Assembly: GCA_043753995.1 (NCBI GenBank) | Contig: JAYUVP010000249.1 | Location: 32,001-96,000, forward strand | Direction of reading: 5' to 3' | Origin: Fibrobacterota bacterium | GTDB taxonomy: Bacteria > Fibrobacterota > Fibrobacteria > UBA11236 | DNA length: 64,000 nucleotides | In this document: positions 14,080 through 30,101 of the stretch, piece after piece | Position numbering within the stretch: position 1 is the stretch's first letter | Layout of the letters: each line of letters opens with the position of its first letter | The notes under the pieces: model-generated | Databases searched by the model: none | What the model saw: the letters and a program-made list of their open reading frames with translations, nothing else | What the model was told of the DNA's origin: nothing | Position numbers and translations under genes: made by a program

Positions 14080-14109
14080 TTGAATTTAAAGGGGTTGGGG
14101 AAGTACATT
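14080..14109 (+). promoter_or_regulatory. Candidate sigma70 promoter for the rpmH operon
   Basis: TTGAAT-N18-TACATT, about 35 nt upstream of the rpmH ATG. Confidence 0.35.
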
Positions 14110-14142
14110 GAATCCCCCTTATATCTAGCTCGGGAAGACTTT

Positions 14143-14304: not shown

Positions 14305-14766
14305 TTGGGCTCCGGGCCATTGCCCCCCGGTAAAGCCCTGCCCAAGGTTTTTCAAAAGCCCCGACCCTCACATCGACTCACGCGGCCCTGGATGTTCAAG
14401 GCCGTGCTTGAGAAGGGGAAGTCGTTGAAATCTCCGCCTCTCAGTCTTCGGTATTTGCGTCGCTTCGACAAAGAGGGCGTTGAGGCGGTCGACATGACCC
14501 GCTTGGGTTTCATTGTGCGAAAAAAAACCGGTCACTCCCCCATGAGAAATGCTTTGCGTCGCGTCTTGCGCGAGGTCTTTCGCTCTCATGCCGAAAAAGT
14601 GACCGTTCCCACTTGGTTGGTTTTCGACATACTTCCCCAAGCAGCCAAGCTTACGCGCACGGCTTTTCGCCTCAAAGGCGAGGAATTGATGCAGCGTCTC
14701 TTAAGCCTACCTCCAGGCTTGCCTTCCGATTCGGCCTCCCAAGGTCGCATGGAGAACGCGGCGTGA
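14305..14766 (+). CDS. rnpA: Ribonuclease P protein component
   Basis: RLGFIVRKKTG..RN.LRRVLRE (RNR-like motif), in canonical position after rpmH. Start uncertain. Confidence 0.88.
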   Translation: MGSGPLPPGKALPKVFQKPRPSHRLTRPWMFKAVLEKGKSLKSPPLSLRYLRRFDKEGVEAVDMTRLGFIVRKKTGHSPMRNALRRVLREVFRSHAEKVTVPTWLVFDILPQAAKLTRTAFRLKGEELMQRLLSLPPGLPSDSASQGRMENAA

Positions 14767-15131
14767 AATTGCGTCCTCGGCATCTCTTGCGCGGCGGGGT
14801 GAAGGTCTATCAAGCCTTGCATCCCATGGTATTCAGCGGCTGCTGCCGCTTTTCGCCGTCCTGTTCGCAGTATGCCCTGCAAGCCCTGGAAACTCACGGC
14901 TCGCTCAAAGGCGCCATGTTATCGGCCGCGCGTATTTGGCGCTGCCAACCCCTGTATCCTGCAGGTTACGATCCCGTCCCCGAAGCCCATGTCGGACTGC
15001 GCGCGAGTTTGCGCGCTTGGTCTTATCTGGGTCCGGGACCGCTGGATCGCCTGCGTCACTGGTTTTTTAAACTCGCGGGCATTTCGCAAGAAAACCCGCC
15101 GCATGATTTGCAGAAAGCGAGGACGCTTTGA
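14763..15131 (+). CDS. yidD: Membrane protein insertion efficiency factor
   Basis: CRFSPSCSQYA..A...HG..KG...RI.RCQP...GYDPVP. GTG start overlaps the rnpA stop. Confidence 0.93.
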   Translation: MKLRPRHLLRGGVKVYQALHPMVFSGCCRFSPSCSQYALQALETHGSLKGAMLSAARIWRCQPLYPAGYDPVPEAHVGLRASLRAWSYLGPGPLDRLRHWFFKLAGISQENPPHDLQKARTL

Positions 15132-16966
15132 AGTTCAATCGTTGGAGCCTATTTGGCTGGATGGCCTTGATGGCCATGTTCATGTTCTGGACCCAGCTCA
15201 AAGGCAAGCAGGCCAAGGCTGCGCATGAAAAGGCCGTGGCCGATTCTTTGGCCCGCGTGGCTGCGATGCCGAAAACCCCCGTCAAGGGCGAAGCGTCCTT
15301 GGGCCCGGTTGCCGGCGATTCTATGCAGGCGACCCGCGAAGCCATCGGCGTAGCGAATGCTCCTGCCGAAAGCGGCATGGTGGCCGACAGTATTCCCCAG
15401 GTGGCACGCAAAAGCATCACGGTGAAGACTCACCGCTTCACCGCCGTGCTCGAAAATGAAGGCGCGCGCATTTCCGAATTGCGCATCGACAGTTTGCAGG
15501 GTCATGCCTTGCACAATCCGCTATTGATCGATCCTGCTCGCGGCGGTGCTCTCACCTTGAGCATCAATCAGCAAAGCCTGGCGAAAACGCTGTGGCGAAC
15601 CGATGCGGTGAAAGATGTCTATACGCTCGACCGAGATTCCTTGGTTCTCAGCTTCACAACCCGCCTCAATAGTGGCCGTGAAGTGACACGCCGCTACACC
15701 TTTTTCGCCGATAGCCCATCGGTGCATCATCGCGCCAAGGTTCCGAACGGCATTCAGAATTGGTCCATGGAATGGCCCGCCGGACTTTCTGAAAACGAAG
15801 ACATTCCCGAAGGCAAGGGCATTGGCCTGATGAGCAGCTATTTCAGCGAAGTGGTTTTCGACAATGGCAGCATGGCCAGCCGCGAAACCTTCGACGGAAA
15901 AAAGTCTTTCAATGCTGAAAGCGGCATTTTGCGCTGGGTGGGTTTACGTCGCAAATACGTAGCGGCCTTCCTCGACTTTCATAAAGAAACCGGCAATCGC
16001 GTTGACGCCGAAGGGTCTTTGCCGCAGGGACGCGAAAAGGGTTTTCCTCACGACTATCGCCTGAAAATCAGCAATGGCCAATGGGATGAAGGCGCTCTCG
16101 ATTTCGACTTCATGATTTTGCCGCTGCAATACGACAAGATCAAGGCCTATGGCCGCAATTACGAGCAAATCCTATTCACGGGTTGGGAGTCTTTCTTCCG
16201 CGCCGACATCTGGTATGTGAAGCTCTGCGGCTTGGTTTTGCATTTGCTGAATTTCTTCCACTCCATGATACCCAATTGGGGTATAGCCATTATCCTGCTC
16301 ACCTTGTTGGTGCGCTTCATCACCTTGCCGCTCACCTTGTCGCAGACGCGGCAAATGGCCCGCATGCAGGAGCACCAGCCCGAGATCAACAAGATTCGCG
16401 AGCGCAATAAAGGCGAGCCCGCCAAGGCTCAACAGGAAATGATGGCTTATTACAAGCAAGTGGGCATATCCCCGCTGGCTCCGGTACTTGGCTGCTTTCC
16501 CATGCTTTTGCAAATGCCGATTTTCATCGCCCTGTTCAATGTGCTGGGCCGCTCGGTGGAATTGAAGCAGGCTTATTTCTTCGGCTGGATACACGACTTG
16601 AGCCAGCCCGACGTGATTTTGCCCGCCCTCAAGGTGCCTTATCTGTTTCCTGTTGGTCTCACCGTGCTTCCCTTCCTGATGGCCGTGACCATGTATTTCC
16701 AGATGAAGCTCACCATCAAGGATCCGAATCAAAAGGCCATGGTTTGGCTCATGCCCATCATGATGTTCGTCTTCTCCTGCTCTTTCCCTTCGGGCTTGGT
16801 GCTGTATTGGAGCGTCTCCAATGTCTTCACTATCACGCAAACCTGGTTGCAGACCAGCAAGAAGCGCAAAGCCGAATCGGAGAAGGCCGCTGCCGCCATG
16901 GATAAGCCGGTGATCAAGACCAAGCCTATTGTCGGCACGCGTCCTAAGGACGGCAAGAAGAAGTAA
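15128..16966 (+). CDS. yidC: Membrane protein insertase YidC
   Basis: NWGIAIILLTLLVR, GCFPMLLQMPIF, WIHDLSQPD and GLVLYW. Confidence 0.97.
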   Translation: MKFNRWSLFGWMALMAMFMFWTQLKGKQAKAAHEKAVADSLARVAAMPKTPVKGEASLGPVAGDSMQATREAIGVANAPAESGMVADSIPQVARKSITVKTHRFTAVLENEGARISELRIDSLQGHALHNPLLIDPARGGALTLSINQQSLAKTLWRTDAVKDVYTLDRDSLVLSFTTRLNSGREVTRRYTFFADSPSVHHRAKVPNGIQNWSMEWPAGLSENEDIPEGKGIGLMSSYFSEVVFDNGSMASRETFDGKKSFNAESGILRWVGLRRKYVAAFLDFHKETGNRVDAEGSLPQGREKGFPHDYRLKISNGQWDEGALDFDFMILPLQYDKIKAYGRNYEQILFTGWESFFRADIWYVKLCGLVLHLLNFFHSMIPNWGIAIILLTLLVRFITLPLTLSQTRQMARMQEHQPEINKIRERNKGEPAKAQQEMMAYYKQVGISPLAPVLGCFPMLLQMPIFIALFNVLGRSVELKQAYFFGWIHDLSQPDVILPALKVPYLFPVGLTVLPFLMAVTMYFQMKLTIKDPNQKAMVWLMPIMMFVFSCSFPSGLVLYWSVSNVFTITQTWLQTSKKRKAESEKAAAAMDKPVIKTKPIVGTRPKDGKKK

Positions 16967-17029
16967 GCGCGGCCCTGGGCGCGGTCCCGGGAAGCGCAAT
17001 CCATCGCATTCGAGACGGCGGCGAAGGTC

Positions 17030-18460
17030 ATGGGGAAAGAAACCATCGCGGCCCCGGCCACTCCTCCGGGAATGTCGGGGCTGGCCATAGTCCGGCTTTC
17101 CGGACCGGATTGCCCCGCTGTTCTATTACACTGCCTGGGGCGTACTCTCGGAGTTACCGAAGCTCCGGAGTTACCCAAGGCCTCGCAGAAGCCGGTGCGC
17201 CCTCGGCATATGCATTATGGCGAGTTTCGCCATCCCGAAACCGGCGAAACGCTGGACCGGCTCACCTTCGTCTATTATCCCGCGCCTAAAAGCCCGACCG
17301 GCGAGGATGTGCTTGAGCTCTTCCCCCACGGCAATCGCCTGCTGGTCGAAAATATTCTGCATGCCTTATTGACCTTACCGGGCTTACGCTTGGCCGGCCC
17401 CGGCGAATTCACGCGCCGCGCCTGCGAGAATGGCAAGCTCGATTTGGTGCAAGCCGAAGGCCTCATGGCCTTGGTTCATGCCCAGTCGCAGGCCGCCTTG
17501 CGACATGCCGGACGCGTGCTGGACGGCGCCCTCTCGAAGCGCTTCTTGGCTTTACGGGGCAAACTGATTGACTTGCTGGTTCACCTCGAACTCGATGTCG
17601 ACTTCGCGGAAGAAGAGGCCGATCCCGACTATGCCTCTTGGCGTCCCCGCGTGCAAGACGCGCTCGCCGACATCGAAGCCTTGCTCCGCAGCCATGATCG
17701 CGGCGCCCGCCTGGAGCGCATCCCCCGCGTGGTCTTGCTGGGCGCGCCTAATGCGGGCAAAAGCAGTTTGATCAATGCCTTGCTGCGCGAGGAAAGGCTT
17801 TTGGTTTCCGACATTCCCGGTACGACGCGTGACTTCGTCGAAGTGCCTTTGCATTTGCCTTCGGGGCTAGTGCATTTGGTCGACACCGCGGGGCTGGGCG
17901 AAGCTGTCGATAGCCTGGACGCTCGCGCCCAGGGAAAAACACGCGAGCAAGCCGACAAGGCCGATTTGCGACTCTGGGTTGCCAATGGTAACGCACCGGT
18001 CGATGCGCTTGCGTGGGCGGGAGATCCGCTCCAGACACTTGCAGGGGACGTCACTCCAACCATACGGGTGCGCACGCGCCGTGATCAGCCTGGCTTTTGC
18101 TCTGAGGTCGGAGCCCTAGCCGTCGCCAATACCACCGGCGACGGTTTGCCTGAATTGATGGAAGCCCTGGAGACGATTTTGTTTGCGCCCGCCAAGGTTG
18201 TCAGATTAAAAGCTCCCGATGGGCAAGCAGGGGAAGGGGCCGACGAGGTTTTCCTCACCACGGAGCGTCAGCGAGAGGCCTTGGAAAAGGCCGCCGCGAA
18301 TTTGCGCGCGGCATTGAATCAGCTCGATGGCCAACCCGCCATTGAAATTCTCGCCTTCGAAGCGCGCGAGGCCGTGCAGGCACTGCGCGAATTGCTGGGC
18401 GAGGTGAGCGCTGACGATGTGCTCAATCGCTTGTTCTCAGGGTTTTGCATCGGGAAATAG
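17030..18460 (+). CDS. mnmE: tRNA modification GTPase MnmE/TrmE
   Basis: TIAAPATP, GEFTRRA..NGKLDL.QAE, GAPNAGKSS, GTTRD, DTAG and FCIGK. Confidence 0.96.
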   Translation: MGKETIAAPATPPGMSGLAIVRLSGPDCPAVLLHCLGRTLGVTEAPELPKASQKPVRPRHMHYGEFRHPETGETLDRLTFVYYPAPKSPTGEDVLELFPHGNRLLVENILHALLTLPGLRLAGPGEFTRRACENGKLDLVQAEGLMALVHAQSQAALRHAGRVLDGALSKRFLALRGKLIDLLVHLELDVDFAEEEADPDYASWRPRVQDALADIEALLRSHDRGARLERIPRVVLLGAPNAGKSSLINALLREERLLVSDIPGTTRDFVEVPLHLPSGLVHLVDTAGLGEAVDSLDARAQGKTREQADKADLRLWVANGNAPVDALAWAGDPLQTLAGDVTPTIRVRTRRDQPGFCSEVGALAVANTTGDGLPELMEALETILFAPAKVVRLKAPDGQAGEGADEVFLTTERQREALEKAAANLRAALNQLDGQPAIEILAFEAREAVQALRELLGEVSADDVLNRLFSGFCIGK

Positions 18461-18520
18461 TCCGATCGCAGTAGACCCAAACATATGGGCGAGGGAAAAT
18501 TCCGCGCTGGGTTCCGGGCC

Positions 18521-19441
18521 CTAATGGGTTGAAGCTGGCGTCGAAGTGCGTCCCGCTTGGGCTCGCTTCAATTGTCGCAGCATATAGTGCAAGGATTCCG
18601 AGGAATAGCCGTGCAGCAGCAATCGGAAACCTGCGCGTAAAGTGGAAAGCGGCAACATGGGGTGGCGATTGTTCACTCGCCACAAACGCGAATCGTCGTC
18701 TAGCAAAGTCGAGACATATATTCCAATTGTTTCGTCGAGTTGCAGGGAATTCGAAGCCCGCCAAAAGTCATTGTCGGAAAGTAGGAACTGGAAAATCGGA
18801 GTATAAATCTCGATGGCGGTTTCGACGTCCATGAAATTATGCCAGGAGTCGGGCAATTCTTCGAATTCGAAAGGCCCGTCGGTAATGGCTTGCAAGTTTA
18901 TCGTCGTGACGGCATGCAAAACCTTGCCTTCTTTCTGCAAGGTTTGATTCAGGCGAATGATGAAATTGAAGAGATTGATATCATGAAACAGGAAAAGGTG
19001 GTCTTTCACATCGGCCAGTCGCTTGGGCTTGAGTGGGTTGAGTGGAATATCGACCCCGCTATTGTCTCGAATGAATTCGAGAATTTCGGAACCAATGTGG
19101 AAATGCCTCATGATCAGCAAATTCGCTTCGCGGCTGGCAAAATACCGGAGTCCCAAATAAATGAGGTGATGCAAAAGCCGTGACGACTTGAAAGCAGAAG
19201 GAAAGGGTGTTTTCAGCACCATAATTAGGCAAATCAAGGTGCGCATGATGGGCCGGAGCAGGGGCAAAAGGAATTGCCGAGTCTTGGATTGCAGCCCAAA
19301 CAGCAAGGCGCCCTTCACTTCGGGATCTATGGGCGTAGAATTGTCGAGAAACAAAGCTTGGGTAGGCAGCGGATCTTCCGGATCATGCTTCAGCCCGTTG
19401 AAATAACTTTGATACCGGGTATGGCGCGTATTTTCAGTCAT
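18521..19441 (-). CDS. Conserved hypothetical protein, last gene of the lipid cluster (recalled as DUF6999-like, unverified)
   Basis: 306 aa, TAATG-coupled to the KAS III fusion. His/acidic motifs RHFHIGSE, FHD, LQLDE and LHG..SE.LH. Confidence 0.7.
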   Translation of the reverse strand: MTENTRHTRYQSYFNGLKHDPEDPLPTQALFLDNSTPIDPEVKGALLFGLQSKTRQFLLPLLRPIMRTLICLIMVLKTPFPSAFKSSRLLHHLIYLGLRYFASREANLLIMRHFHIGSEILEFIRDNSGVDIPLNPLKPKRLADVKDHLFLFHDINLFNFIIRLNQTLQKEGKVLHAVTTINLQAITDGPFEFEELPDSWHNFMDVETAIEIYTPIFQFLLSDNDFWRASNSLQLDETIGIYVSTLLDDDSRLWRVNNRHPMLPLSTLRAGFRLLLHGYSSESLHYMLRQLKRAQAGRTSTPASTH

Positions 19442-21318
19442 TAGTAATTGCCTATTTCTTCGAGTTGCAACCGGTAGAGGCGTGCCGTGGTTTTGGCTGC
19501 TTTTACGATTTCATCGGCAAGCATTGGGGTCAAGGGTAAAAGTTTCATCGCCGTATGCATTTCTTCGAGGTGATGCTCGTCATTGTGACCGTGATAGAGA
19601 AGAAAGGACACCGCATCGGAACTCAGTTGAAGGGCCCTTTGGATTTTCTCGCCCCAAGCCTTGGCCAGGTTTTTTCCAAGTCCTTCGATGATAAAAACCG
19701 AGCCTAGCATGTGAAAAGGATTTTCCCTTCCGGCCTGGTGAAACATATAAGCGGAAAAGGCCTCGGATCCAATATTCTTGGGATGGGAAAGTATGTCCCC
19801 GCGTTCGCCCCCGGAGGCGACATAGTTGGCTTCGAGCATGCGGAAATCGCGGTGCTCATCCCAGGAATGCTTGAGATAGAGAGAGCGCAATTCAAAATGC
19901 TCCGTGGTGATATTCGAGGCCGCTTTGGAAATCCAGCGACTGCCCTCCATGACTTGCTGGCGCAGGTTGAGAAGCAATTCCCTGTAGTCGGATCGGGTTA
20001 AGTTTCCGGTCTCGATTTTGTGGATGAGGGATAACTTGCTTAGTCCCAATTCGAAATCCGACCACACCAGGAAGAGGCGACGGAAAAGGGAGGCCAGTAA
20101 ATCCTCGCCCGGCTGAAGCGGGATGTCGCTCGGAGTGGCGGATATTTCTTGTTGCGCCGGTAACAATGATTTTTTTTCCGTTGGCGATTCGCCGACTACG
20201 GTCAATAGCATAAAACTGGTGATAAAGCGACCGCTCTCGGGGACTTGGCAAAGGATTTTCTGCCCGGATTGAAGCCGTCCCGATTGCCATAGTTCTTCGA
20301 GCATGATCAACAGGGAGGCCGCGCCTGTATTGCCCTTGTGATATAGGTTGGTGAACCACTTATGCGCAGGAATGTCGGCCAGGCATTTCTGCAATAGGTC
20401 GACGATTTGATCCTTGAAGACATGCGAGGAATAGTGACAAAGAAACCAGTCGAAATCGGGTTTGAGCTTGCCCTCTTCGATAAGCGAGAGATAATGCGAC
20501 ACACCCAAGGGGACGATTTTGTCGAGCATGGCGAGATCTTGTCTTAGGGTAAACAGACCTTGCCGAACGGCGTCACCATAATTCGCCATTTCTCCCGTGG
20601 TAACCCGTATGCTTCCGTCTTCGGATTTTTCACCGCCGGCATACATGCAAACATCCAGGCTATCGGCATGTGATTTCAAGTCTATCCACTCGATACGGAG
20701 GGATAGGCCACTTTCCTTGGGCCGGTCTTGCAGAAGCGCGGCGCCCGCACCATCCGACAACATCCAGCGTAAAAATTCGGTGTCGAGCGGTATGCGCTTC
20801 TCATTCTGAAAGCTGTCTAGTTCTTCGAGTATCGGGGCCCGGAATTGACGGCTGGGAAATTCGCTGCCGCAAACCATGCCGGTCTTGTGCTTGCCGCAGG
20901 CAATGGCGTGATAGGCCCCTTGAAGCGCGGACATGACGCTCGCGCAAACACCTTGAAAAGAGGCGACATCGCAGCAGGCGATCTTGGCTTCGCCTTGCAC
21001 CATGCTCGAAAAGCCGGGTACGAAGAGATCGCCTTGGGTGGTGGCGGTGGCCAAATAGTCAATACCCTTGGCGTCGATGGAGGAGTCTTTGAGGGCGGCG
21101 TGAATGGCGAGGGAAGCCATTTGCGCATTGCGATGTGTGGGTTTGCCATTTTCGTCGAGAGCATAATGGCGGGTTTCGATGCGATTGAGTTTGAGCACTC
21201 GCTTTTTCGCGATCGATGGCTTTCCTCCCACGAGTCCGAGTCGCTTCTCGGCGGCTTCGGAGTCTAGCGCGGGTCCAGGAAGAAAGGCTCCGAGCGAAGT
21301 GATATAAACGGGTCGCAT
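19441..21318 (-). CDS. StlD/DarB-like beta-ketoacyl synthase III fused to a C-terminal heme-oxygenase-like (iron-containing redox) domain
   Basis: Catalytic C/H/N in GVCAS, CHYSS and KGNTGAAS, plus VPESGRF. After a linker (near 20100), a helical domain with KHSWDEH, IIEGLG and HGHNDEHH. Confidence 0.85.
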   Translation of the reverse strand: MRPVYITSLGAFLPGPALDSEAAEKRLGLVGGKPSIAKKRVLKLNRIETRHYALDENGKPTHRNAQMASLAIHAALKDSSIDAKGIDYLATATTQGDLFVPGFSSMVQGEAKIACCDVASFQGVCASVMSALQGAYHAIACGKHKTGMVCGSEFPSRQFRAPILEELDSFQNEKRIPLDTEFLRWMLSDGAGAALLQDRPKESGLSLRIEWIDLKSHADSLDVCMYAGGEKSEDGSIRVTTGEMANYGDAVRQGLFTLRQDLAMLDKIVPLGVSHYLSLIEEGKLKPDFDWFLCHYSSHVFKDQIVDLLQKCLADIPAHKWFTNLYHKGNTGAASLLIMLEELWQSGRLQSGQKILCQVPESGRFITSFMLLTVVGESPTEKKSLLPAQQEISATPSDIPLQPGEDLLASLFRRLFLVWSDFELGLSKLSLIHKIETGNLTRSDYRELLLNLRQQVMEGSRWISKAASNITTEHFELRSLYLKHSWDEHRDFRMLEANYVASGGERGDILSHPKNIGSEAFSAYMFHQAGRENPFHMLGSVFIIEGLGKNLAKAWGEKIQRALQLSSDAVSFLLYHGHNDEHHLEEMHTAMKLLPLTPMLADEIVKAAKTTARLYRLQLEEIGNY

Positions 21319-21332
21319 GAATGTCCTGAGGT

Positions 21333-22265
21333 TTAGACGGGCGAAGGGGAATGGGCAGGTGCAGGAGCTTGCAAGGAATCGGATCGGCGAAAATCGAAAG
21401 TTCGATAGCGGCGAACGAAATGCTGTAAGACGAAAATTTTCAAGAAGTAAAAGGCGAGACTAGGCTCATTCAATTGGGGATGGATCCAATGACGTAGGCG
21501 ATCGTGTTCCTTAGGCCATTGCGACCAATGCATGTTGATATTGCGGTGATGGACAAGATGATAACCGTGATTAAAGGTGATGCGGTTCAGCCAAACGCCG
21601 ACGAAATTTCGGCTGGAATCATAGGGGTGATGGGGGGCTGTGTGATGATGTTGAAAATAGCCGGTGCCTACCATGGCCAAAACGCCGAAGGCTTGCGGCA
21701 AGAGTAGGGCATAGGCGGTGGTCTTCGCGTCGATTCGCCAGAGATAAAGGGTCAAGGTAAGCCAAGCGGCGATTTGCAGCGACCAAAAAAGGCCGAGCCG
21801 AAATCCCGAGGTGTTCCGAGGTTTCGCCATCAAGGAAAGCCAATAAAGGAAGCTTGCCCGAAAGTAAACCCTGACTCCATGCGCGAGATAACGAAAGAAC
21901 TGCAAAAAATTATTGTGATGGGAATAACGGTAGGTGTAAGTGTAATCGTCGCTGCTGTTGGCATAACGGTGGTGATTGGCATTGTGCGTCGCTTTCCAGG
22001 CATAGCAGCCATCAAAGCGGTAGAGGGTGAAGAGGAATTCGATGGCGCGATTGGCCAACCTGGAGCGGAAAAAGGGCCAATGGCCGTGACAATGCTGAAT
22101 GCAGCCGACCACATAGGTGATTAAAGCGGTGAGCACCGAAAGCCACAGGCGCGGCCCTATCAGGAAGTGCCAAGTCACGAGTAGCGGATAAACAGCCAAG
22201 ACGCCAAGGCAGCGAAGGTCTTGTTTGTTTCTAAGGCCTAGAACGGAAGAAGACGCCTGCGGCAT
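21333..22265 (-). CDS. Membrane-bound fatty acid desaturase
   Basis: His boxes HCHGH, HNANHH, QHHH and HGYHLVHH, with TM segments. Confidence 0.88.
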   Translation of the reverse strand: MPQASSSVLGLRNKQDLRCLGVLAVYPLLVTWHFLIGPRLWLSVLTALITYVVGCIQHCHGHWPFFRSRLANRAIEFLFTLYRFDGCYAWKATHNANHHRYANSSDDYTYTYRYSHHNNFLQFFRYLAHGVRVYFRASFLYWLSLMAKPRNTSGFRLGLFWSLQIAAWLTLTLYLWRIDAKTTAYALLLPQAFGVLAMVGTGYFQHHHTAPHHPYDSSRNFVGVWLNRITFNHGYHLVHHRNINMHWSQWPKEHDRLRHWIHPQLNEPSLAFYFLKIFVLQHFVRRYRTFDFRRSDSLQAPAPAHSPSPV

Positions 22266-22268
22266 GAC

Positions 22269-23033
22269 TTATTCCGCCGGGCTATGCGCGCGACGACGGT
22301 AGCCCGAGGCCAGCCAGCGGTCAAGCCAGGGCGTCCAGAAGCCGAAATTGCGTGTCGCCTTGCGGTGGTGGGTGCCATGGCGCCAATTGTTTTCCAGAAA
22401 ACTCGCGCCTTGAGTGTGGGTTGGCCAGGAGAAATTGGCATGCCCGAAAGTATTGGCAGTCATGCTGATAGCCGGCCAAAGCATGATGGCGAGGATGTCG
22501 AAGTCATGCACAAGCATGATGAGAATCATGGTTCCGCTATAGAGTAAGGCCTCGAACCAGTGAAAGCTAAGGCTACTGAAAGGCGTAGTGGTCACGCTGT
22601 AATGATGCACGGAATGCACACGACGAAAAAGGAAAGGTCTATGCAATAACCAATGGCAGGAAAAGAAATAAAGCTCATTCCAAGCGGCGAAGAGAAGCAA
22701 GTCGCCGAGTGCGCGTACTAGGGAAAAGTCTTTCCATAAAATGGTGAGCATTCCATGCTCTTCCAATTTGAGCGCTAAAACCGCGAAGAAACTGAGAAAA
22801 AGCATGGCACTCATGGACTTCCGAATTTCATGGCCTATTTGACCCGCCTTGATTGGGCGGTTGTCGATATAAAATCCCAGTTTCCGTTTGATCAGAACGT
22901 CACGAATGAAAAGGAAAGATATGGCGGACAAGGAAAAATAAGCCACCAAAAAACCCGCAATATGCCAGGCATAGTATTCGGGCCAACTCAGACTATGCGA
23001 CAGCGTTTGCAGGGCGCCGAAGTCGAGCATCAC
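22269..23033 (-). CDS. Sterol desaturase / fatty acid hydroxylase family protein
   Basis: His boxes HWLLH, HSVHH and HGTHH; TPFS..SFHWFEA; NFG. Alternative ATG at 23030. Confidence 0.9.
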   Translation of the reverse strand: MMLDFGALQTLSHSLSWPEYYAWHIAGFLVAYFSLSAISFLFIRDVLIKRKLGFYIDNRPIKAGQIGHEIRKSMSAMLFLSFFAVLALKLEEHGMLTILWKDFSLVRALGDLLLFAAWNELYFFSCHWLLHRPFLFRRVHSVHHYSVTTTPFSSLSFHWFEALLYSGTMILIMLVHDFDILAIMLWPAISMTANTFGHANFSWPTHTQGASFLENNWRHGTHHRKATRNFGFWTPWLDRWLASGYRRRAHSPAE

Positions 23034-23800
23034 GATTTCTCCAAGGGCTCGTCATAATTGAAGCGGGCCGAACGCGTCCGGAAAGTTTCGTCGAACCAGG
23101 GAAAGGCAAAACCGTAATTGCCCTTGATATGGGTGTGATGCAAGGTGTGTCGACGGCAAGAAGAGAAAAGATGATTCAAGGCGAGCTTGGGAAAAACGGC
23201 ATAATTCATATGGCCGATATTGTTCATGAAAAGACTCAAAGCCGGGAAGAGAATGATGGCTCCCATGCTCAGAGGCGCGAAGGCCATATAGGTCACCATG
23301 ACGCTGCTCAGCAAGACGGCTTCGAACCAGTGAAAGCTATAGGTCGAAAAGGGAGTGGGCACAACCGAAAGATGGTGATGCCGATGCACATGTCGGTAAA
23401 ACCAGGGTAGGTGCAAGAGATAATGCGAGGCATAGAAATGAACTTCATTCCATAAGGTGAGCAGAATGAGATCGAGGACTAGACGCCAGGGTGAATGAAT
23501 CCAATCGATGTGAATCAGGCCCAGCCGCTGCAAGCCCAAGGTCAATCCACCATAAGCGCCGAAGACGAGAATGGAGATTAAGGAAAGTCTCACTTCACGC
23601 GTGATTTGCCGGGGTGGAATGGGGCGTGAATCGATGACGCGGCCAATTTTGAAAGTCGGAAGGACTTTTTGGGTGAGCTGAAGCGTGATAAAAGCCAGGG
23701 CGAAGTAAATGAAAGCAAAACCGAGTGCAACTAAGGCGGCAATTTGCCAGAGCCTAAGTTCGAACATGAAATCGCGTAGTCCGATTTGCAAGGCCGTCAT
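23030..23800 (-). CDS. Sterol desaturase / fatty acid hydroxylase family protein (paralog of the neighbour)
   Basis: HYLLH, HRHHH and HTLHH; TPFSTYSFHWFEA; NYG. Confidence 0.9.
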   Translation of the reverse strand: MTALQIGLRDFMFELRLWQIAALVALGFAFIYFALAFITLQLTQKVLPTFKIGRVIDSRPIPPRQITREVRLSLISILVFGAYGGLTLGLQRLGLIHIDWIHSPWRLVLDLILLTLWNEVHFYASHYLLHLPWFYRHVHRHHHLSVVPTPFSTYSFHWFEAVLLSSVMVTYMAFAPLSMGAIILFPALSLFMNNIGHMNYAVFPKLALNHLFSSCRRHTLHHTHIKGNYGFAFPWFDETFRTRSARFNYDEPLEKS

Positions 23801-24039
23801 GCTGCGCTTTCTAGGCGAAGTATCACATCGCCAATGGTGGCGGCGGCCATCAATTCTTCCAAAGGGATTTCAGCCAGGCCGCTTTGATGCAGTTCATACT
23901 CCAATTCGAGAGCGCTTAAAGAGTCGAGCCCTAAATCCTTTTTCAAGGACATATCATGGCTCAGGGATTCGACTGGGCGATGGGAGACTCGGCTGATGGC
24001 TTGCATCACCTTGATTTCAATAGCAGGCATACGGGTCAA
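23797..24039 (-). CDS. Acyl carrier protein
   Basis: DLGLDSL phosphopantetheine motif, about 80 aa, acidic. Alternative ATG at 24030. Confidence 0.92.
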   Translation of the reverse strand: MTRMPAIEIKVMQAISRVSHRPVESLSHDMSLKKDLGLDSLSALELEYELHQSGLAEIPLEELMAAATIGDVILRLESAA

Positions 24040-25244
24040 TCTTGATGACGCGAAAAAAGGAGGGAAACATTATTCGAGCCGAAACCGAAAGAATTCTTGA
24101 GGATGTTTCGCAATGGCGCATGTTGATTCGCCGATTCAGTCGCTGTCATACCTTCCTGAAGGTGAAAGGCTTGCGGCAATTGCTGCTTCATCAAGGCTTG
24201 GACGCATAGAATGGATTCGAGGATACCACAAGCCCCAAGACTATGTCCGATTTGGTTTTTTGGAGCCACCACGAGCTTGCCGCCGAGTTCCTTGCCAAAT
24301 ACCGAATGCATGCCGAGATATTCGACTTCATCATTCTTCAGGGTACCGGTGCCATGCGCGCAAATGGCATCGATATCTTTGGCCTCTATTCCGGCGCAAG
24401 CTAAGGCTTTGTGCATGACGGCAATAATATCGCTCGCATCGGGCTTCGGTGCGACTGGATGATATGCACCTGAATTCTGTGCCACGCCGGAAAGCTTTGC
24501 CAAGATCGGTGCGCCACGCCTGCGCGCCGACTCTGGTGATTCAAGTATAAGGAAGCCAGCTCCCTCGGCGAGTATAAAGCCGTCGCGCTCCGGGTGAAAG
24601 GAGCGTCCCGGCTGCAGGGGATCGCGTTGGGCGCTGAGCACTTTCAATTGCTTATAAGCATGATAATTGAAGGGTGAAAGCGGGGCTTCTGCGCCGCCCA
24701 CCAAAGCGATGTCCCATTGCCCAGTAGCGATTTTCCAAAAGCCTTCAGCAAGGGCATTTGCGCTTGAGGAGCAGGCCGTAGAGATGCAGAGGTTCGGACC
24801 GGTAATGCCGGTTTGTTGGGCTATCCATGACCCCAGGGCACTGGGCATCACCTTGGGGACGGTGAAGGGATGTATCGCGCGCATGCCTTCTTGCAAGGCT
24901 TTGGCGATCATTTCTTCATGAAAGTCCAGACCACCGAGACCACTGCCCAGGCAAATGCCGATGCGATAGTCGGAAGTGTCGCCGGACAAGCCCGCTTGAT
25001 CCAAAGCCTCGCGGGCAGCGATGATACCTAAGTGTACGCAGCGAGCAGAGCGAGCGAGAATTTCGGGTGGTAGTCGCTTGGCGACATCGATATGGACCTT
25101 GCCAACCAAAACCGGATCGATAGCAAAACCGTCCTGAAATGAGAATTGGGCTTTGCCGGAAGACATTTCATCCCAAAAAGCATCTACTCCGCAGGCGCGG
25201 CCGACGAGCGCACCCAAGCCGGTGATGACAGGAAAGGTTACCAT
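24036..25244 (-). CDS. Beta-ketoacyl-ACP synthase II (FabF-like, cluster-dedicated)
   Basis: STACSSS, AHGTGT, IGHSLGA and NSFGFG. GAGGGG RBS precedes ATG 25244. Confidence 0.92.
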   Translation of the reverse strand: MVTFPVITGLGALVGRACGVDAFWDEMSSGKAQFSFQDGFAIDPVLVGKVHIDVAKRLPPEILARSARCVHLGIIAAREALDQAGLSGDTSDYRIGICLGSGLGGLDFHEEMIAKALQEGMRAIHPFTVPKVMPSALGSWIAQQTGITGPNLCISTACSSSANALAEGFWKIATGQWDIALVGGAEAPLSPFNYHAYKQLKVLSAQRDPLQPGRSFHPERDGFILAEGAGFLILESPESARRRGAPILAKLSGVAQNSGAYHPVAPKPDASDIIAVMHKALACAGIEAKDIDAICAHGTGTLKNDEVEYLGMHSVFGKELGGKLVVAPKNQIGHSLGACGILESILCVQALMKQQLPQAFHLQEGMTATESANQHAPLRNILKNSFGFGSNNVSLLFSRHQD

Positions 25245-25259
25245 CAACAACCCCTCAAA

Positions 25260-25841
25260 TCATTGCTCTTGCTCGGGCATATCGAATAAAAAACCGATCT
25301 GAAAAAACATCTCTAAGTTGGCTGACGCCCCACGCCTAACAAACGAGTTATTGTTCGATCCCATGGGAATAAAAATCTCGATAGCATTTCCGGCGGCCAT
25401 CTTAAAGTGACCCGCCTGAAAATGGAATTTGCCCCCTGGTGCAATGAGGGCGTCCTCGGATTTGAAGGAACCATAGTAGTCGCGCTCACGATAATACCGA
25501 TATCCGAATTCGATTTCAGGAGTAAAGCCCCAGCGGTAGCCCTGCCAAACGCTATAGCCAAAATAGATGGACGGGCTAAGGTATTTGCTTGTCTTCGACT
25601 GGGTCTGAATTTGAATCAAATTGATAATTCCCGGCTTTAAACCGAATTCAAAGCGATCCACATGTCTTTCCAAAAAAAGTTCGATGGGAAAAATGCCAAC
25701 CGTGCCTCCGCTATAGCTACGGTCAACCTGGGATTCTCCAGCGGAGGACAAAATGAAACCGACTTGATTATCATAGGCGCTTGCTCCAGAGTGAAACAAG
25801 GGCAAGGTGCTGAGCAGGAATAAAAACCGCGGTAGGAACAT
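25260..25841 (-). CDS. Secreted hypothetical protein, possible small outer-membrane beta-barrel
   Basis: Signal peptide (..GASA-Y), alternating aromatic/glycine beta strands and a near-terminal FQIGFLF. Confidence 0.55.
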   Translation of the reverse strand: MFLPRFLFLLSTLPLFHSGASAYDNQVGFILSSAGESQVDRSYSGGTVGIFPIELFLERHVDRFEFGLKPGIINLIQIQTQSKTSKYLSPSIYFGYSVWQGYRWGFTPEIEFGYRYYRERDYYGSFKSEDALIAPGGKFHFQAGHFKMAAGNAIEIFIPMGSNNNSFVRRGASANLEMFFQIGFLFDMPEQEQ

Positions 25842-25866
25842 GGGGTGCAAAGTAATATTCCCAATC

Positions 25867-26166
25867 ATGAGCCAGCCTTCGTCATCCCATGATTCTTGTC
25901 GCCAAAAGCCGGGTCTTTTCAAACCCATTGTCAATCATTCGCGCTGTGAAGGCAAAAGCGATTGCGTGGTGGTCTGTCCGGTGAATGTTTTCGAAGTGCG
26001 CCGCATCGAAGATTCTGATTTCGCGGCACTAGGCATACTGGCCAAGGTCAAAGTCATGGTCCATGGCAGAAAAACGGCCTATACGCCCCGCGCCGAGGCT
26101 TGCGAAGCCTGCGGCCTATGCGTCACGGCTTGTCCGGAAAAGGCGATTCGCCTGATGAAGGTTTAA
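25867..26166 (+). CDS. Ferredoxin (dicluster, probably 3Fe-4S plus 4Fe-4S)
   Basis: CEGKSDCVVVCP and CEACGLCVTACP. Confidence 0.9.
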   Translation: MSQPSSSHDSCRQKPGLFKPIVNHSRCEGKSDCVVVCPVNVFEVRRIEDSDFAALGILAKVKVMVHGRKTAYTPRAEACEACGLCVTACPEKAIRLMKV

Positions 26167-26172
26167 GCGGTT

Positions 26173-29100
26173 TTAATTCGGCGGGGTTCCCCATTTGAAC
26201 CAGGCATTCAAGGTGGCCAGTTCGGTGGGAGTGAGTTGCACACCCGAAGCGGGCATATATCCTGCGGATAGGAATGGACGATTGATGCGATCGTAAACCT
26301 TGCTTCGCGTCAAGGAGTCGGCGACAGTCGTGGAATCGCAAACCGCGGTGGCGTTCACCTTCCCGGGCCCGTGGCATGTCAGGCAGTAGGTGTTTAGAAC
26401 GGTGGAAACGCCGGAGTTAAAAGGCGGCAAAACCGTATTGCGAGCCAAGGCATGAATAGGCCCGTCCGTGGCGGTGGCCGTGATGGTTGTCGTGCCGGTG
26501 ATCATTTTCAAGACTTGAACTTGGGTGGAGCTCACCACTTTCAAAACCGCAGGATTGCTGCTGGTCAAGGCATAGGTCTTGAGCGTGGTGGAATCTGGCG
26601 CGAAAACCGCTGTGCTTTGCACCGTCGTTCCCACCACGAGCCGTGGCAGGGTTAGGGCGATTCCCGTAGCCACCACATTCCCCACGGTTACATTGAAATT
26701 CGCTGTTTTCGCCCCGTCGGTCGAAGTCACGCGCCATACCGAATTCCCCGCCGCTGTTCCCGATAATTGAGTTGTTCCTACCAGAGTGGCACCTGTACCT
26801 GACACCAAGGAAAGGGTATAGCCCTTATTTGTCGCCGATGACGGCGTCCAGGATAAAGTTGGCGCCTTGGTACTGCCAACAAAAAGGCTGAGGTTAGCCG
26901 CGCTCACGCTCTGCACCGGGACCGGGCCCACGACCACGGTGAAGGTGTCCTTGACCGTGGGATTTTGCACCGAAGTCGCGACAATCTTCACCGAGCCCAA
27001 TGCGGATGCCGTCACCTTGCCTCCGGGCAAAACCGTGACGCCCAAGCCCAAGGAGGTGAGGGTATAGCTCTTACTCGTCGCCTCCTCAGGAAAGGCGCCT
27101 ACCTGTGGAATCACGGTGTCGCCGACTTGAAAGGAAGTGTCTGCTCCGACCAAGCTGTCGACGGGCCACGGAATCACGGTCACTTTAAAGGACTTGGATT
27201 TCGCTCCTTCTTCGGTGGTCAATCCGACATTGGCCGATCCCACGTAGGCGCCATGAATTCGAATACCCGTGGGCGTGGTCACTGTGGTATCGAAGGAAAC
27301 CAAGCTATAGCCCTTATTGCTCGCATCCCCCGGCGCAAAAGTCACCTTGGGGAATTTCGTGTCGCCAAGCCTCACCGTGTCTTCCGCCACCGTCACGTTT
27401 TGCAAGGGGACGAAATGGGCATTGAGCCAGCCCAGTAAAATGCCCAGCTGGCTGGGAGTCAAGTCGCCTTCAGCCGGCATGCGATCCTTGTCGGTTTTCG
27501 CGAGTTGCAAGCGCCGTAGCGATTCCGCGCCCTTGATCAAGAAAACGCTGGAGTCTTGCAAGTTGAAAGTAATGGTGGGGCTATGGCATTTGCCGCATTT
27601 CTCGGTGGTGATGGGCTTAACATGCGCGTCGAATTGCGGCGTCACGGCCATAGCGGTGAAGGTGGCCGTCTTGTCTCCATCTTCGGCGCGCACCGTGATT
27701 TTTGCCGAGCCCAATACCCCGGCCACCAGGCGATTGCCGACCGGTTTGATGGCGGCGCTATTGTCGCTTTCCAAGGTGTAATTCTTATTGGTGGCGTCAT
27801 TCGGTAAGAAGACCACTCTGGGCGTGATGGTGTCGCCGAGGGCGATGGCGGTGTCCTTGGCAGAGAGGCTAAGCACCGTTTTCACATTGCGGCCCAACCA
27901 GAGCAGCATCAAATCGAGATCGCGCTTGTCCATGGTGGTGTCGGCAGGCATATGCGCCGTGTTTCCGAAAGGCAAGGACAATCGCGCGAGGGCCTTGCTT
28001 CCACGGCCGACGAGTACAGCCGAGTCCTGCAGATTGAAGGTAATGGTGGGGCTATGGCATTTGCCACACCACTTCTTGGAAATGGGTTGTATATCGGCAA
28101 AGGTTGGGCCTCGTACGGTCACCGTAAAGGTGTCCTTTGCTCCGCCGGCAGTTGCGGTAACCGTCACCTGCGCCGAGCCTTCGGCGCGCAAGGCGAGGCG
28201 CTTGCCGACGACACGGACTCGGGTGGTATCATCGCTTGCTATTTCAAATTCGCGCTCGGTGGCATTGGAAGGCATGAAGACGATGTTCGGTGTAAGGGTG
28301 TCATAAAGCAAACCCGTGGTGTCCACCGCGTCCAGCGCAGTCGGGGCGATGCTCTTGTCGCTAATCGAGAATGAGAAGGTGGCCTTGGCGCTGCCACGGT
28401 TGGCCTGCACCGTCACCTGGGTGCTACCTGCGGCGAGAGCGACGAGGCGAAGCCCGCTCAGCACCTTGGCCTTGGTGGTGTCCGCTACGATCAATTGCAC
28501 GCCCTTGTCGGTGGCGCCGTCAGGCTCCAAGGTCGGCGTGACTGTCACGGTATCACCGGTTTTGGCGCCGAGATTCGATACCGAGATGGAGCTAAGCAAG
28601 ATCACCTTTTCGGTGATGGTCACTGAGAAAGACATACGGGCCGTGTCGCGATGGGCTCGCACTTCGATAGTGACCTTGCCCGTATCACGGCATAGCACGG
28701 CATGGCCGCGCGTTCCCGCGCGCAAGGTGTCGACGGCATGCAGGCTGTATTCCTTGTCGGCGGCGGTGTCGGGACGCACGGTCACCCGGGCATTCACCGT
28801 GTCTCCCGCCTGGCAGTCCAGATCTTCGGCTGTCAGTCGCGTGCGCGCCCTGTCTACCTGCGCCAAGCTGTCTTGATGCGCGACACTATCGGCGAGGATG
28901 ACGCTGTCCTTGCGGGCCTTGACGTCCACCACGGCGCTGTCGCGCTTCTGTCCTTTTTCGGCATAGTCGAAGCGCTTTTCAAAGGCCACGGCATTGTCTT
29001 TCAGCCCCGTGATGACGGCCGAAAAATTGGGCGACACGTTTTCGGGCAAATCGAATTGCACCGTGCTCTGGCCCGGCTTCAAAACAAAGGTTTTGCTGAA

Positions 29101-29280
29101 CAGGGTTTTGCCCGTGTCGAGTCCCTTAGGATAAAGCGAAACCTTCACGCTGTCGAATTTCCCCACCAGAGTGGAATCGAGCTGGAATTGCAATTCGGTT
29201 TTTTCCTTGGGATTGCTCAGGCAGGAAAATAGCCCGAGCAAGACAAAGCCGAGAAGCGAAAGGGAAAGCAGGGTTTTCAT
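26173..29280 (-). CDS. Lipoprotein with about 8 Ig-like (Big_2-type) repeats and three c-type cytochrome domains
   Basis: Lipobox LFS-C. Repeats with P..AT.K..L...G...VTV. CGKCH (28054-28068), CGKCH (27583-27597) and CLTCH (26371-26385), each followed by an MP motif. Confidence 0.85.
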   Translation of the reverse strand: MKTLLSLSLLGFVLLGLFSCLSNPKEKTELQFQLDSTLVGKFDSVKVSLYPKGLDTGKTLFSKTFVLKPGQSTVQFDLPENVSPNFSAVITGLKDNAVAFEKRFDYAEKGQKRDSAVVDVKARKDSVILADSVAHQDSLAQVDRARTRLTAEDLDCQAGDTVNARVTVRPDTAADKEYSLHAVDTLRAGTRGHAVLCRDTGKVTIEVRAHRDTARMSFSVTITEKVILLSSISVSNLGAKTGDTVTVTPTLEPDGATDKGVQLIVADTTKAKVLSGLRLVALAAGSTQVTVQANRGSAKATFSFSISDKSIAPTALDAVDTTGLLYDTLTPNIVFMPSNATEREFEIASDDTTRVRVVGKRLALRAEGSAQVTVTATAGGAKDTFTVTVRGPTFADIQPISKKWCGKCHSPTITFNLQDSAVLVGRGSKALARLSLPFGNTAHMPADTTMDKRDLDLMLLWLGRNVKTVLSLSAKDTAIALGDTITPRVVFLPNDATNKNYTLESDNSAAIKPVGNRLVAGVLGSAKITVRAEDGDKTATFTAMAVTPQFDAHVKPITTEKCGKCHSPTITFNLQDSSVFLIKGAESLRRLQLAKTDKDRMPAEGDLTPSQLGILLGWLNAHFVPLQNVTVAEDTVRLGDTKFPKVTFAPGDASNKGYSLVSFDTTVTTPTGIRIHGAYVGSANVGLTTEEGAKSKSFKVTVIPWPVDSLVGADTSFQVGDTVIPQVGAFPEEATSKSYTLTSLGLGVTVLPGGKVTASALGSVKIVATSVQNPTVKDTFTVVVGPVPVQSVSAANLSLFVGSTKAPTLSWTPSSATNKGYTLSLVSGTGATLVGTTQLSGTAAGNSVWRVTSTDGAKTANFNVTVGNVVATGIALTLPRLVVGTTVQSTAVFAPDSTTLKTYALTSSNPAVLKVVSSTQVQVLKMITGTTTITATATDGPIHALARNTVLPPFNSGVSTVLNTYCLTCHGPGKVNATAVCDSTTVADSLTRSKVYDRINRPFLSAGYMPASGVQLTPTELATLNAWFKWGTPPN
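27551..28068 (-). repeat. Intragenic duplicated heme-domain segment (CGKCHSPTITFNLQDS twice)
   Basis: Near-identical nucleotide stretches at 27551-27597 and 28022-28068. Confidence 0.85.
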
Positions 29281-30101
29281 TATTTCACCTTGGTCACGAC
29301 GGTCGTCGTTTGCGTGCCGGGATCGCTCATGAGCATAATGGTGGTGATGCCGACTAGAGTCACCGCAGCTGCACCTCCCGCCACCCACAGCCAGGTTTTA
29401 TTGCCTTTGCCGTCGCCGGAGGTCGCAGCGGCGTTACCCCCCGCCTGAGATGCCGGATCCGAGGTCTTGGCACCTGCCGACCCAATAACCGCATTAGCTC
29501 CCGTGTCAGGCCTCACCTCGATGAGATTACGCCCGGTCGAGTCAATGGGATAGCCGAAAGTCTTCAAGTTCTTGCGTACGCGCTCGCGCTCGGCCACGCT
29601 ATCGCTGTCGCTGGCGGTGCGATCATAACGCTTGCGCACCTCACGAAACATGTCCAGAATGGCATCACCCACTTCGAGGTCTTCCAAATCTTGGCGCGGA
29701 TCGAGCTTAAGCATTTGATACAGAAAAGATTCTGCCTTGCGACGCGTTCCCATGTCGGCGCCATACACCACACCGAGGTATTTATAGATGAAAATGCTGT
29801 CTTCCTTGTCGCGAATGCGGCGATCGCGGCGCATGTTTTCCAAAAGGGCGATGAGTTGATCGAAGTCGCCGCCATGATAAAGCTCTTCCACCGTTTTTTT
29901 ATCGAGCACGGCTGATTTTTTCAACTTGGTCGCCGAGGTTTTCGCGGGCGACGCAGCGGGGGTGGCCTTGGTCGTGTTCGTTGAGTTCGCGGTCGTAGTT
30001 GCGGGCGTGGCTTTTTCGGGTTGCGGCGTTGCCGACCATGAAGTCATGACCCCAAAAACCGTAAGCGCGAGAAACCCGGCCAAGGTGCTGAAAAACCTCA
30101 T
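29280..30101 (-). CDS. Secreted TPR-like protein with C-terminal membrane anchor (paralog of 32951-33619)
   Basis: Signal peptide, Thr/Ala/Pro linker, Y..GDF...DSIF..YLGVVY..D.GTR helical domain and WLWVAGGAAAV TM. TAATG-coupled to the downstream lipoprotein. Confidence 0.75.
   Translation of the reverse strand: MRFFSTLAGFLALTVFGVMTSWSATPQPEKATPATTTANSTNTTKATPAASPAKTSATKLKKSAVLDKKTVEELYHGGDFDQLIALLENMRRDRRIRDKEDSIFIYKYLGVVYGADMGTRRKAESFLYQMLKLDPRQDLEDLEVGDAILDMFREVRKRYDRTASDSDSVAERERVRKNLKTFGYPIDSTGRNLIEVRPDTGANAVIGSAGAKTSDPASQAGGNAAATSGDGKGNKTWLWVAGGAAAVTLVGITTIMLMSDPGTQTTTVVTKVK

What the first reader, a model, noticed from the sequence alone, without database searches (positions are those of the whole stretch)
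18521..25244. Candidate undescribed lipid/polyketide cluster: FabF + ACP + three membrane desaturases + KAS III-diiron fusion + unknown protein
Seen: seven co-oriented genes with overlapping or near-abutting start/stop codons and intact catalytic motifs. Established: DarB/StlD-type KAS III enzymes condense two acyl chains in dialkylresorcinol/stilbene pathways together with a DarA/StlC cyclase, and membrane His-box enzymes desaturate or hydroxylate acyl chains. Here no DarA-like cyclase is recognisable, while four to five putative diiron oxidases are packed around a dedicated ACP and KAS II. Inference: the cluster makes an unusual, highly oxidised lipid (polyene, alkyne, hydroxy-ketone or hydrocarbon) that I cannot match to a characterised pathway.
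Basis: partly seen in the sequence, partly recalled or inferred. Interest (0 to 1): 0.82.

Follow-up and report, generated by a model that had tools for sequence, protein, structure and literature searches.

The report
DarA-less ketosynthase–dimetal oxidase lipid cluster
These seven tightly packed genes are an unusually complete copy of a widespread but uncharacterised bacterial module (a ring-forming type of fatty-acid-joining enzyme fused to a predicted two-metal oxidase, plus a protein with no structural match), here with its own carrier protein, chain-extending enzyme and three membrane oxidases, and they likely make a two-tailed, oxidised ring lipid not yet identified.

Summary
The seven genes are real, coupled and intact. 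The conserved unit is smaller: a StlD/DarB-like ketosynthase, a heme-oxygenase-like (HDO) domain and DUF6999. HDO lay upstream of DUF6999 in 46 of 46 and the ketosynthase in 38 of 38 metagenome loci long enough to tell. Membrane His-box oxidases are variable extras (21 of 29 loci). FabF and ACP were in 0 of 80 loci; this FabF forms a small clade that probably travels with the module. No DarA-like gene was found in the genome or the 80 loci. DarA is an aromatase, not a cyclase: DarB closes the ring itself. The HDO has Asp where the usual first His ligand sits (55 of 55). The confident DUF6999 model has no structural match, so a fifth diiron enzyme is unsupported. Best reading (about 0.4, inferred): the ketosynthase joins two acyl chains into a cyclohexanedione, the HDO replaces DarA by oxidising it to a resorcinol, and the membrane oxidases modify the tails. 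Six literature searches found no product. This scan met the three-gene core before in other genomes; the FabF–ACP version appeared in none of the notes returned.

The parts
24036..25244 (-). FabF/KAS II, lineage-specific chain-extending enzyme; member of a small clade (11 clusters at 62-90% identity, then 45% or less)
   Evidence: Pfam PF00109/PF02801; TIGR03150 305 bits, below cut-off 494; C158, H297, K329, H334 invariant in 14 of 14; clade and contig-length match with the module; other FabF-like genes of the genome are about 30% identical
23797..24039 (-). Dedicated acyl carrier protein, Ser40 in GLDSL
   Evidence: PF00550; one of 6 PP-binding matches in the genome; no tblastn hit to the others at E 1e-3; a conventional AcpP-like gene lies on contig C166 near a FabH-like gene
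23030..23800 (-). Membrane His-box oxidase 1 (sterol desaturase / fatty acid hydroxylase family)
   Evidence: PF04116 E 2.5e-20; three predicted hydrophobic segments; His boxes conserved in 16 sequences
22269..23033 (-). Membrane His-box oxidase 2, paralog of oxidase 1 (38% identical)
   Evidence: PF04116 E 3.8e-18
21333..22265 (-). Membrane fatty acid desaturase family protein
   Evidence: PF00487 E 3.2e-19; His boxes conserved in 11 sequences; found directly upstream of the KS in 6 of 29 related loci and in L001
20194..21318 (-). StlD/DarB-like ketosynthase domain (residues 1-375 of the fusion)
   Evidence: NF005293 388 bits (cut-off 450), NF053539 348 (cut-off 550); PDB StlD E 2e-81; model vs StlD Z 52.6, rmsd 1.6 A, next 38.4; C125/E153/H295/N330 invariant 46 of 46
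19441..20103 (-). Heme-oxygenase-like dimetal (HDO) domain (residues 406-625) with a non-canonical His-to-Asp ligand change
   Evidence: PF14518 above cut-off; fold match 3DDE Z 25.6, CADD 8VA9 Z 23.2; H484, E488, D491, E545, H576, D580, H583 invariant in 55 of 55; D491 aligns with His of 3DDE
18521..19441 (-). DUF6999 protein, all-helical, constant third member of the core
   Evidence: PF22523; 3000 relatives; model pLDDT 90.5; no Foldseek hit at E 0.001, no VIA match at Z 5 or more; H113, H153, D154, D205, D236, H277, E282 invariant in 79 of 79
25260..25841 (-). Co-oriented protein with a signal-peptide-like start, 15 nt upstream of FabF; possibly in the operon, not shown to belong to the pathway
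   Evidence: no Pfam hit of note; in 0 of 80 related loci

Best explanation
The cluster likely makes a two-tailed ring lipid by a DarA-independent version of the dialkylresorcinol route, in which the fused HDO domain is predicted to do the oxidation that DarA does elsewhere. Step 1 (inferred): FabF extends acyl chains on the dedicated ACP, loaded by the host PPTase, with host reductase and dehydratase giving 3-oxoacyl and 2-enoyl thioesters. Step 2 (inferred from fold and residues): the StlD/DarB-like domain joins the two chains head to head into a carboxy-dialkylcyclohexanedione. Step 3 (inferred, the new step): the HDO uses O2 and a carboxylate-rich dimetal centre to remove two electrons from the ring, either by UndA-like loss of CO2 with C=C formation or by desaturation after decarboxylation; either gives the resorcinol after tautomerisation. 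Step 4 (inferred): the PF00487 and two PF04116 membrane enzymes desaturate or hydroxylate the tails or ring. DUF6999 is an obligate partner of unknown role (second catalytic step or substrate-handling protein). Shown here: gene content, coupling, conserved residues, folds, co-occurrence. Not shown: any activity, metal binding, product or expression.
For: KS is far closer to StlD than to any other solved KAS III and keeps its catalytic residues in 46 of 46. DarB makes carboxy-CHDs and DarA aromatises them with decarboxylation (PMC6836626 passages). HDOs do oxidative decarboxylation and desaturation (PMC13108848 part 1). HDO and DarA-like genes did not co-occur: DarA-like in 0 of 80 module loci and not in the genome, while HDO is in 46 of 46 and fused in frame in 29 of 29. 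A Streptomyces KS whose neighbour is DarA-like, with FabF and ACPs in its cluster (L088), falls on the HDO side of the KS tree (100/100 split from four DarB-like rows), which suggests that this KS clade can work with either oxidase. The putative microcarbonin cluster is a precedent for DarB plus desaturases. The host has three heme-copper oxidase subunits and a PPTase.
Against: The KS scores below both curated DarB/StlD cut-offs and sits in a clade apart from DarB proper; PMC6836626 warns that DarA-less DarB homologs may not make CHDs. The nesting of L088 is not significant: holding the 21 HDO-linked KS together without it is not rejected (AU p 0.136). The HDO lacks the canonical first His, so its metal site is unproven. 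No characterised HDO aromatase turned up ('aromati' has 0 hits in the review). One paper describes decarboxylation as spontaneous before aromatisation (PMC13748660 passages). The reading does not explain why DUF6999 is always present. The DarA-like queries were identified by gene position and recall, with no library hit.
Confidence: 0.42

Rival explanations
1. The KS makes the cyclohexanedione ring, but the HDO does something other than aromatise it (ring or tail hydroxylation, quinone formation, ring cleavage); DUF6999 is the aromatase or the product stays non-aromatic.
For: DUF6999 is as constant as the HDO, about the length of DarA-like proteins (306 vs 318-321 aa), and has 7 invariant His/Asp/Glu residues.
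Against: DUF6999 has no sequence likeness to the DarA-like proteins and no known fold; the HDO, not DUF6999, is the part fused to the KS.
Confidence: 0.2
2. Linear head-to-head route: the KS does an OleA-like Claisen condensation without ring closure and the HDO decarboxylates the acid as UndA does, giving a long-chain enone, ketone or olefin that the membrane enzymes unsaturate further.
For: UndA is the fatty-acid HDO precedent; OleA is among the fold neighbours (Z 36.7); no DarA; the KS is below the DarB cut-offs.
Against: The KS is much closer to StlD (Z 52.6, 40% identity) than to OleA (18%); no OleBCD-like genes in the cluster (OleBCD requirement recalled).
Confidence: 0.2
3. The KS is an acyl-transferring or pyrone-forming enzyme (PpyS-, CerJ- or tetronate-like) and the product is a pyrone, ester or amide lipid oxidised by the HDO.
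For: KAS III folds do many such reactions; AbyA1, MxnB and CerJ are in the fold list; DarA-less clades may differ in reactivity.
Against: All score far below StlD; no acceptor-supplying gene is conserved in 29 loci.
Confidence: 0.1
4. One reading: the dedicated ACP, FabF and several diiron enzymes build a polyyne or polyene fatty acid, and the KAS III only primes or releases it.
For: Dedicated ACP and FabF, three His-box enzymes; an HDO can form an alkyne (MboA, PMC13185094 passages); desaturases form alkynes in microcarbonin and jamaicamide.
Against: No acyl-AMP ligase or thioesterase among the proteins scanned at 17-29 kb; ACP and FabF are in 0 of 80 loci and 7 of 29 loci show no membrane oxidase, so the core does not depend on them. 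Alkynes in the tails of a ring lipid remain possible.
Confidence: 0.08

Closest known systems
DarABC / StlCDE / BrtCD dialkylresorcinol, cyclohexanedione and stilbene pathways
   Same: StlD/DarB-type KS with Cys-His-Asn triad and the Glu matching StlD's; an ACP in the cluster, as in darABC.
   Different: No DarA-like aromatase detected; KS below family cut-offs and in its own clade; fused HDO and DUF6999 have no counterpart; own FabF and three membrane oxidases.
Putative microcarbonin A cluster of Microcystis (darA, darB, two desaturases, oxygenase, exporter; PMC6836626, unproven)
   Same: DarB-type KS with desaturases that could unsaturate the tails.
   Different: That cluster has DarA and an exporter and lacks an ACP; this one has HDO, DUF6999, ACP and FabF.
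HDO superfamily (UndA, CADD, BesC, MboA; closest structure 3DDE, Sden_3740, unassigned)
   Same: Seven-helix fold (Z 25.6 and 23.2); five of six canonical ligand positions kept.
   Different: Helix-1 His is Asp in 55 of 55, with an invariant His one turn earlier; fused or adjacent to a ketosynthase; no such member in the review parts read.
Bacterial polyyne clusters (caryoynencin/cepacin type; recalled)
   Same: Dedicated ACP and several membrane desaturase-family genes.
   Different: No acyl-AMP ligase, thioesterase or rubredoxin seen; two of three oxidases are PF04116; a DarB-like KS is the conserved centre.

Membership tests
DarAB/StlCD dialkylresorcinol pathway | KS passes curated StlD/DarB family cut-off | tested here: not met
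   NF005293 388 vs 450; NF053539 348 vs 550. The score was taken on the 625-aa fusion, but an unfused relative also falls short (372 and 331), while darABC-type L094 scores 600.
DarAB/StlCD dialkylresorcinol pathway | StlD fold and catalytic Cys, Glu, His, Asn | tested here: met
   Z 52.6, rmsd 1.6 A over 370 residues; C125, E153, H295, N330 in 46 of 46; H295 aligns with StlD H302.
DarAB/StlCD dialkylresorcinol pathway | Adjacent DarA/StlC aromatase | tested here: not met
   Two DarA-like queries (L094:5030-5986, L088:10157-11122; identified by position and recall) gave no tblastn hit in the genome (97% complete) or in 80 loci.
DarAB/StlCD dialkylresorcinol pathway | Forms carboxy-CHD from 3-oxoacyl and 2-enoyl thioesters | not testable with these tools
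   Needs an enzyme assay.
HDO superfamily | Heme-oxygenase-like helical fold | tested here: met
   PF14518 33 bits vs cut-off 28.9; 3DDE Z 25.6, CADD Z 23.2; Atlas 0.96.
HDO superfamily | Canonical 3-His/3-carboxylate ligand set (E-x2-H, E, H-x3-D-x2..4-H) | tested here: not met
   E488-x2-D491 replaces E-x2-H in 55 of 55; E545, H576, D580, H583 kept; invariant H484 may be an extra ligand. Canonical set from PMC13108848 and PMC13185094.
HDO superfamily | Binds a dimetal cofactor and activates O2 | not testable with these tools
   Needs metal analysis and spectroscopy.
Bacterial polyyne cluster (features recalled) | Acyl-AMP ligase, thioesterase and rubredoxin beside ACP and desaturases | tested here: not met
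   None among the proteins scanned from 17030 to 29388.
Ferritin-like or HO-like diiron protein (for DUF6999) | Four-helix or seven-helix diiron fold | tested here: inconclusive
   No such family listed; best VIA Z 4.4, rmsd 5.7 over 159; best Foldseek E 0.11.
FabF (KAS II) | Cys-His-His site with conserved Lys | tested here: met
   C158, H297, K329, H334; below the housekeeping equivalog cut-off, so a specialised paralog.

The most novel reading that the evidence does not exclude
KS-HDO-DUF6999 is a second, unrelated and very widespread route to bacterial ring lipids, in which an HDO with a new carboxylate-rich ligand set is an O2-dependent decarboxylating aromatase replacing DarA, and DUF6999 is an enzyme with a new fold; this copy, with its own FabF, ACP and three membrane oxidases, makes a polyunsaturated or alkyne-bearing member of an undescribed lipid class.
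Probability: 0.3. Interest if true: 0.85.

Novelty: new variant of a known kind. Interest (0 to 1): 0.64.

Why it matters
Two reviews name DarB homologs without DarA as an open question (PMC6836626, PMC10088813, passages). This module is a common form of it: thousands of proteins, with named hits in Acidobacteria, Archangium, Paenibacillus/Cohnella, Pseudoalteromonas, Nostoc and a DUF6999 match in Caulobacter vibrioides. It offers a testable new HDO reaction (aromatisation), a new HDO ligand arrangement and a protein with no structural match. The window's copy adds a dedicated carrier and elongase, which argues for ACP-bound acyl substrates and makes it a largely self-contained 6.7-kb target for expression.

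Tried and rejected
Literature: DUF6999 0 papers; five-term search 0; 'iron-containing redox enzyme' with StlD, sterol desaturase or beta-ketosynthase 0; some searches gave reviews and canonical DarAB papers only. Listianol (PMC13192835, passages and outline) and the HACEK resorcinols (PMC13748660, passages) use DarA plus DarB and are not this module. The KAS III review PMC6786007 is not held; subscription papers and supplements (for example the gene maps in Fig. 10 of PMC6836626, and HDO network tables) were not seen and could show this module unnamed. No MIBiG or antiSMASH tool was available. The genome-contig scan with the single protein found only L001. Viral scans gave one DarB-like locus and one blank. 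Two guessed NCBIfam accessions for DarA were other families. DUF6999: no PDB sequence match at E 10, no fold match, Atlas hits under 0.9. The membrane oxidases have no PDB sequence match; the desaturase has no plasmid match. Apparent FAH-KS or FAD-KS fusions in L011, L033, L049, L050 were long open frames in another frame and were rejected. Promoter and terminator scans were uninformative. No RNA holder listed. No repeat of the mnmE 3' end of 12 bases or more in the window.
Full report
Observation. The seven ORFs lie on the minus strand between 18521 and 25244, with gaps of -4, -4, -4, +3, +14 and -1 nt. In order of transcription: FabF, ACP, two PF04116 proteins (38% identical to each other), one PF00487 desaturase, a 625-aa KAS III-HDO fusion, and DUF6999. 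The cluster ends 60 nt from the stop of a convergent mnmE. Its genes have GC3 0.54-0.61 against 0.68-0.70 in four flanking genes. It is patchy among kin: DUF6999 in 2 of 251 genomes of the phylum sample, own included; the fusion in 2 of 32 of the family; the FabF clade in 1 of 39 of the order. The one relative with the module (G152) has a split KS and HDO in another part of the tree. This fits horizontal gain (inference). The nearest named locus is a Fibrobacterales MAG (L001, 62%). The host has three heme-copper oxidase subunit matches and one PPTase match, so O2 chemistry and ACP loading are plausible.

What is conserved. The fusion has 7709 relatives among 8000 candidates scored, a count that includes plain DarB-like KS; nearly all of the best 120 are full-length KS-HDO fusions. 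DUF6999 has 3000 among 3916 candidates. A metagenome scan with the DUF6999 alignment confirmed at least 574 places and returned the best 80, 56 distinct at 90% identity; the set leans toward the window's own clade. HDO lay upstream in 46 of 46 loci with at least 1.8 kb of upstream DNA, the KS in 38 of 38 with at least 3 kb. Among 29 non-redundant loci with at least 1.5 kb upstream of the KS, KS and HDO were joined in frame in 29 (L082 appears frameshifted at the end of its KS); 7 had a PF04116 gene, 7 a delta-9-like desaturase, 5 PF04116 plus PF00487, 1 PF00487, 1 PF04116 plus delta-9, 1 a 186-aa membrane protein, and 7 none, three of these with short downstream flanks. DarA-like, ACP, FabF, ferredoxin and the upstream secreted-type protein were in 0 of 80 by tblastn at E 0.001 (four ACP queries; short divergent ACPs could be missed). 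Pseudoalteromonas has the split three-gene core; a Nostoc plasmid has a P450 before an apparently broken copy. So KS-HDO-DUF6999 is the unit and membrane oxidases are exchangeable tailoring genes.

What is special here. The FabF has 11 relatives at 62-90% identity, then a drop to 45% or less. This is indirect, since I did not see those contigs, but it indicates a small lineage in which FabF travels with the module; the ACP was not searched this way. By inspection the window is the only locus with two full PF04116 genes. A dedicated ACP and FabF point to ACP-bound acyl chains as substrates (inference). Bartoloside and putative microcarbonin clusters lack an ACP and are thought to draw on primary metabolism (PMC6836626 passages), as the other module loci presumably do.

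Ketosynthase. The model (pLDDT 91) matches StlD at Z 52.6, rmsd 1.6 A, the next entry at 38.4 (Foldseek agrees). C125, E153, H295 and N330 are invariant in 46 of 46. It scores below both curated cut-offs and all module KS split 100/100 from four DarB-like rows (midpoint root only). It works like DarB by fold but is not a member by score. A Streptomyces plasmid cluster (L088: ACP, KS, DarA-like, monooxygenase, FabF, P450, ACP, FabG) has a KS on the module side of that split. Its position inside the clade is not significant (AU p 0.136, run without the mixture model on 26 rows, 21 of the 46 module KS), but it shows a KS of similar score (382 bits) paired with a DarA-like gene.

DarB closes the ring and DarA/StlC is the aromatase; decarboxylation occurs during aromatisation according to PMC6836626 (passages), while PMC13748660 describes it as spontaneous (passages). 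The missing function is a two-electron oxidation. My DarA-like queries were recognised by position (hypothetical-darB-acpP) and by recall of the family's start; neither NCBIfam nor Pfam names them. They are 35% identical to each other and hit nothing in the genome or module loci.

HDO domain. Residues 406-625 match 3DDE (Z 25.6) and CADD (Z 23.2). H484, E488, D491, E545, H576, D580 and H583 are invariant in 55 of 55. Most HDOs use three His and three carboxylates (PMC13108848, first of six parts plus passages; MboA ligands in PMC13185094 passages). Here the His of the first E-x2-H is Asp (aligned to 3DDE), and both ligand helices show an i, i+4, i+7 spacing. I could not inspect coordinates, so the site geometry is inferred. 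UndA removes CO2 from a fatty acid to leave a C=C; the same chemistry on a carboxy-cyclohexanedione would give the resorcinol after tautomerisation. That is my inference; no HDO aromatase appeared in what I read.

DUF6999. The model is confident (pLDDT 90.5), all-helical, with no Foldseek hit at E 0.001 and no VIA match at Z 5 or more among 48,161 chains. Seven His/Asp/Glu residues are invariant in 79 of 79, which would suit a catalytic or metal site, but nothing ties it to a diiron family. Its role is the main gap.

Prior knowledge. Searches found no description of the module or a product; DarA-less DarB homologs are named as unresolved in PMC6836626 and PMC10088813 (passages). Five earlier notes of this scan describe the same three-gene core in other genomes; I stated my reading before seeing them, and they are not independent evidence. 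A word search adding ACP and FabF returned none.

Verdict. A real, intact, orphan pathway: a new variant of the DarB-type condensation system with an unassigned HDO and a protein of unmatched fold. The mechanism is a committed inference at about 0.4; the ring-forming step alone I put near 0.6. Interest 0.64.

Noticed in passing
window 14029-18460: rpmH-, rnpA-, yidD-, yidC-like ORFs and mnmE (names of the first four recalled from the translations; mnmE by Pfam); the lipid cluster converges on the 3' end of mnmE.
   Followed up: partly
window 25260-25841 (-) and 25867-26166 (+): A 193-aa protein with a signal-peptide-like start and no family, and a 2x[4Fe-4S] ferredoxin, start back to back about 25 nt apart; neither was in the 80 related loci.
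   Followed up: partly
L088:8709-18285 (Streptomyces sp. NBC_00008 plasmid): Cluster of ACP, DarB-like KS, DarA-like protein, FAD monooxygenase, SCP2, FabF, P450, ACP, FabG and LLM oxidoreductase; the same KS occurs on two more Streptomyces plasmids (H7, H8). Possible resorcinol pathway, not checked against literature.
   Followed up: partly
L093:5983-7143: A StlD/DarB-family KS above the family cut-off lies directly behind terminase- and portal-like genes in a viral contig, with no DarA-like gene in the locus.
   Followed up: partly
L087:4989-6131 and L089:5995-7131: Stand-alone DarB-like KS behind a TetR/HTH regulator on Bacteroides and Prevotella plasmids, with neither DarA nor HDO: a second kind of DarA-less context.
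   Followed up: no
L004:9684-10241, L042:10883-11443, L031, L065, L067: A 185-190-aa His-containing membrane protein with no Pfam or NCBIfam hit sits beside the module in 6 loci, in place of the desaturases.
   Followed up: partly
L005:3958-8534 (Nostoc flagelliforme plasmid): P450 followed by an unannotated, apparently broken KS-HDO-DUF6999.
   Followed up: no
control genomes: Caulobacter vibrioides has a DUF6999 match over the cut-off, so a laboratory host may carry the module; its neighbourhood was not seen.
   Followed up: no
window 11011-13035: 674-aa protein with an eCIS core domain (PF13699).
   Followed up: no
window 26173-29388: Large Ig-domain lipoprotein with cytochrome c motifs, already noted by this scan (e1-944280).
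   Followed up: no
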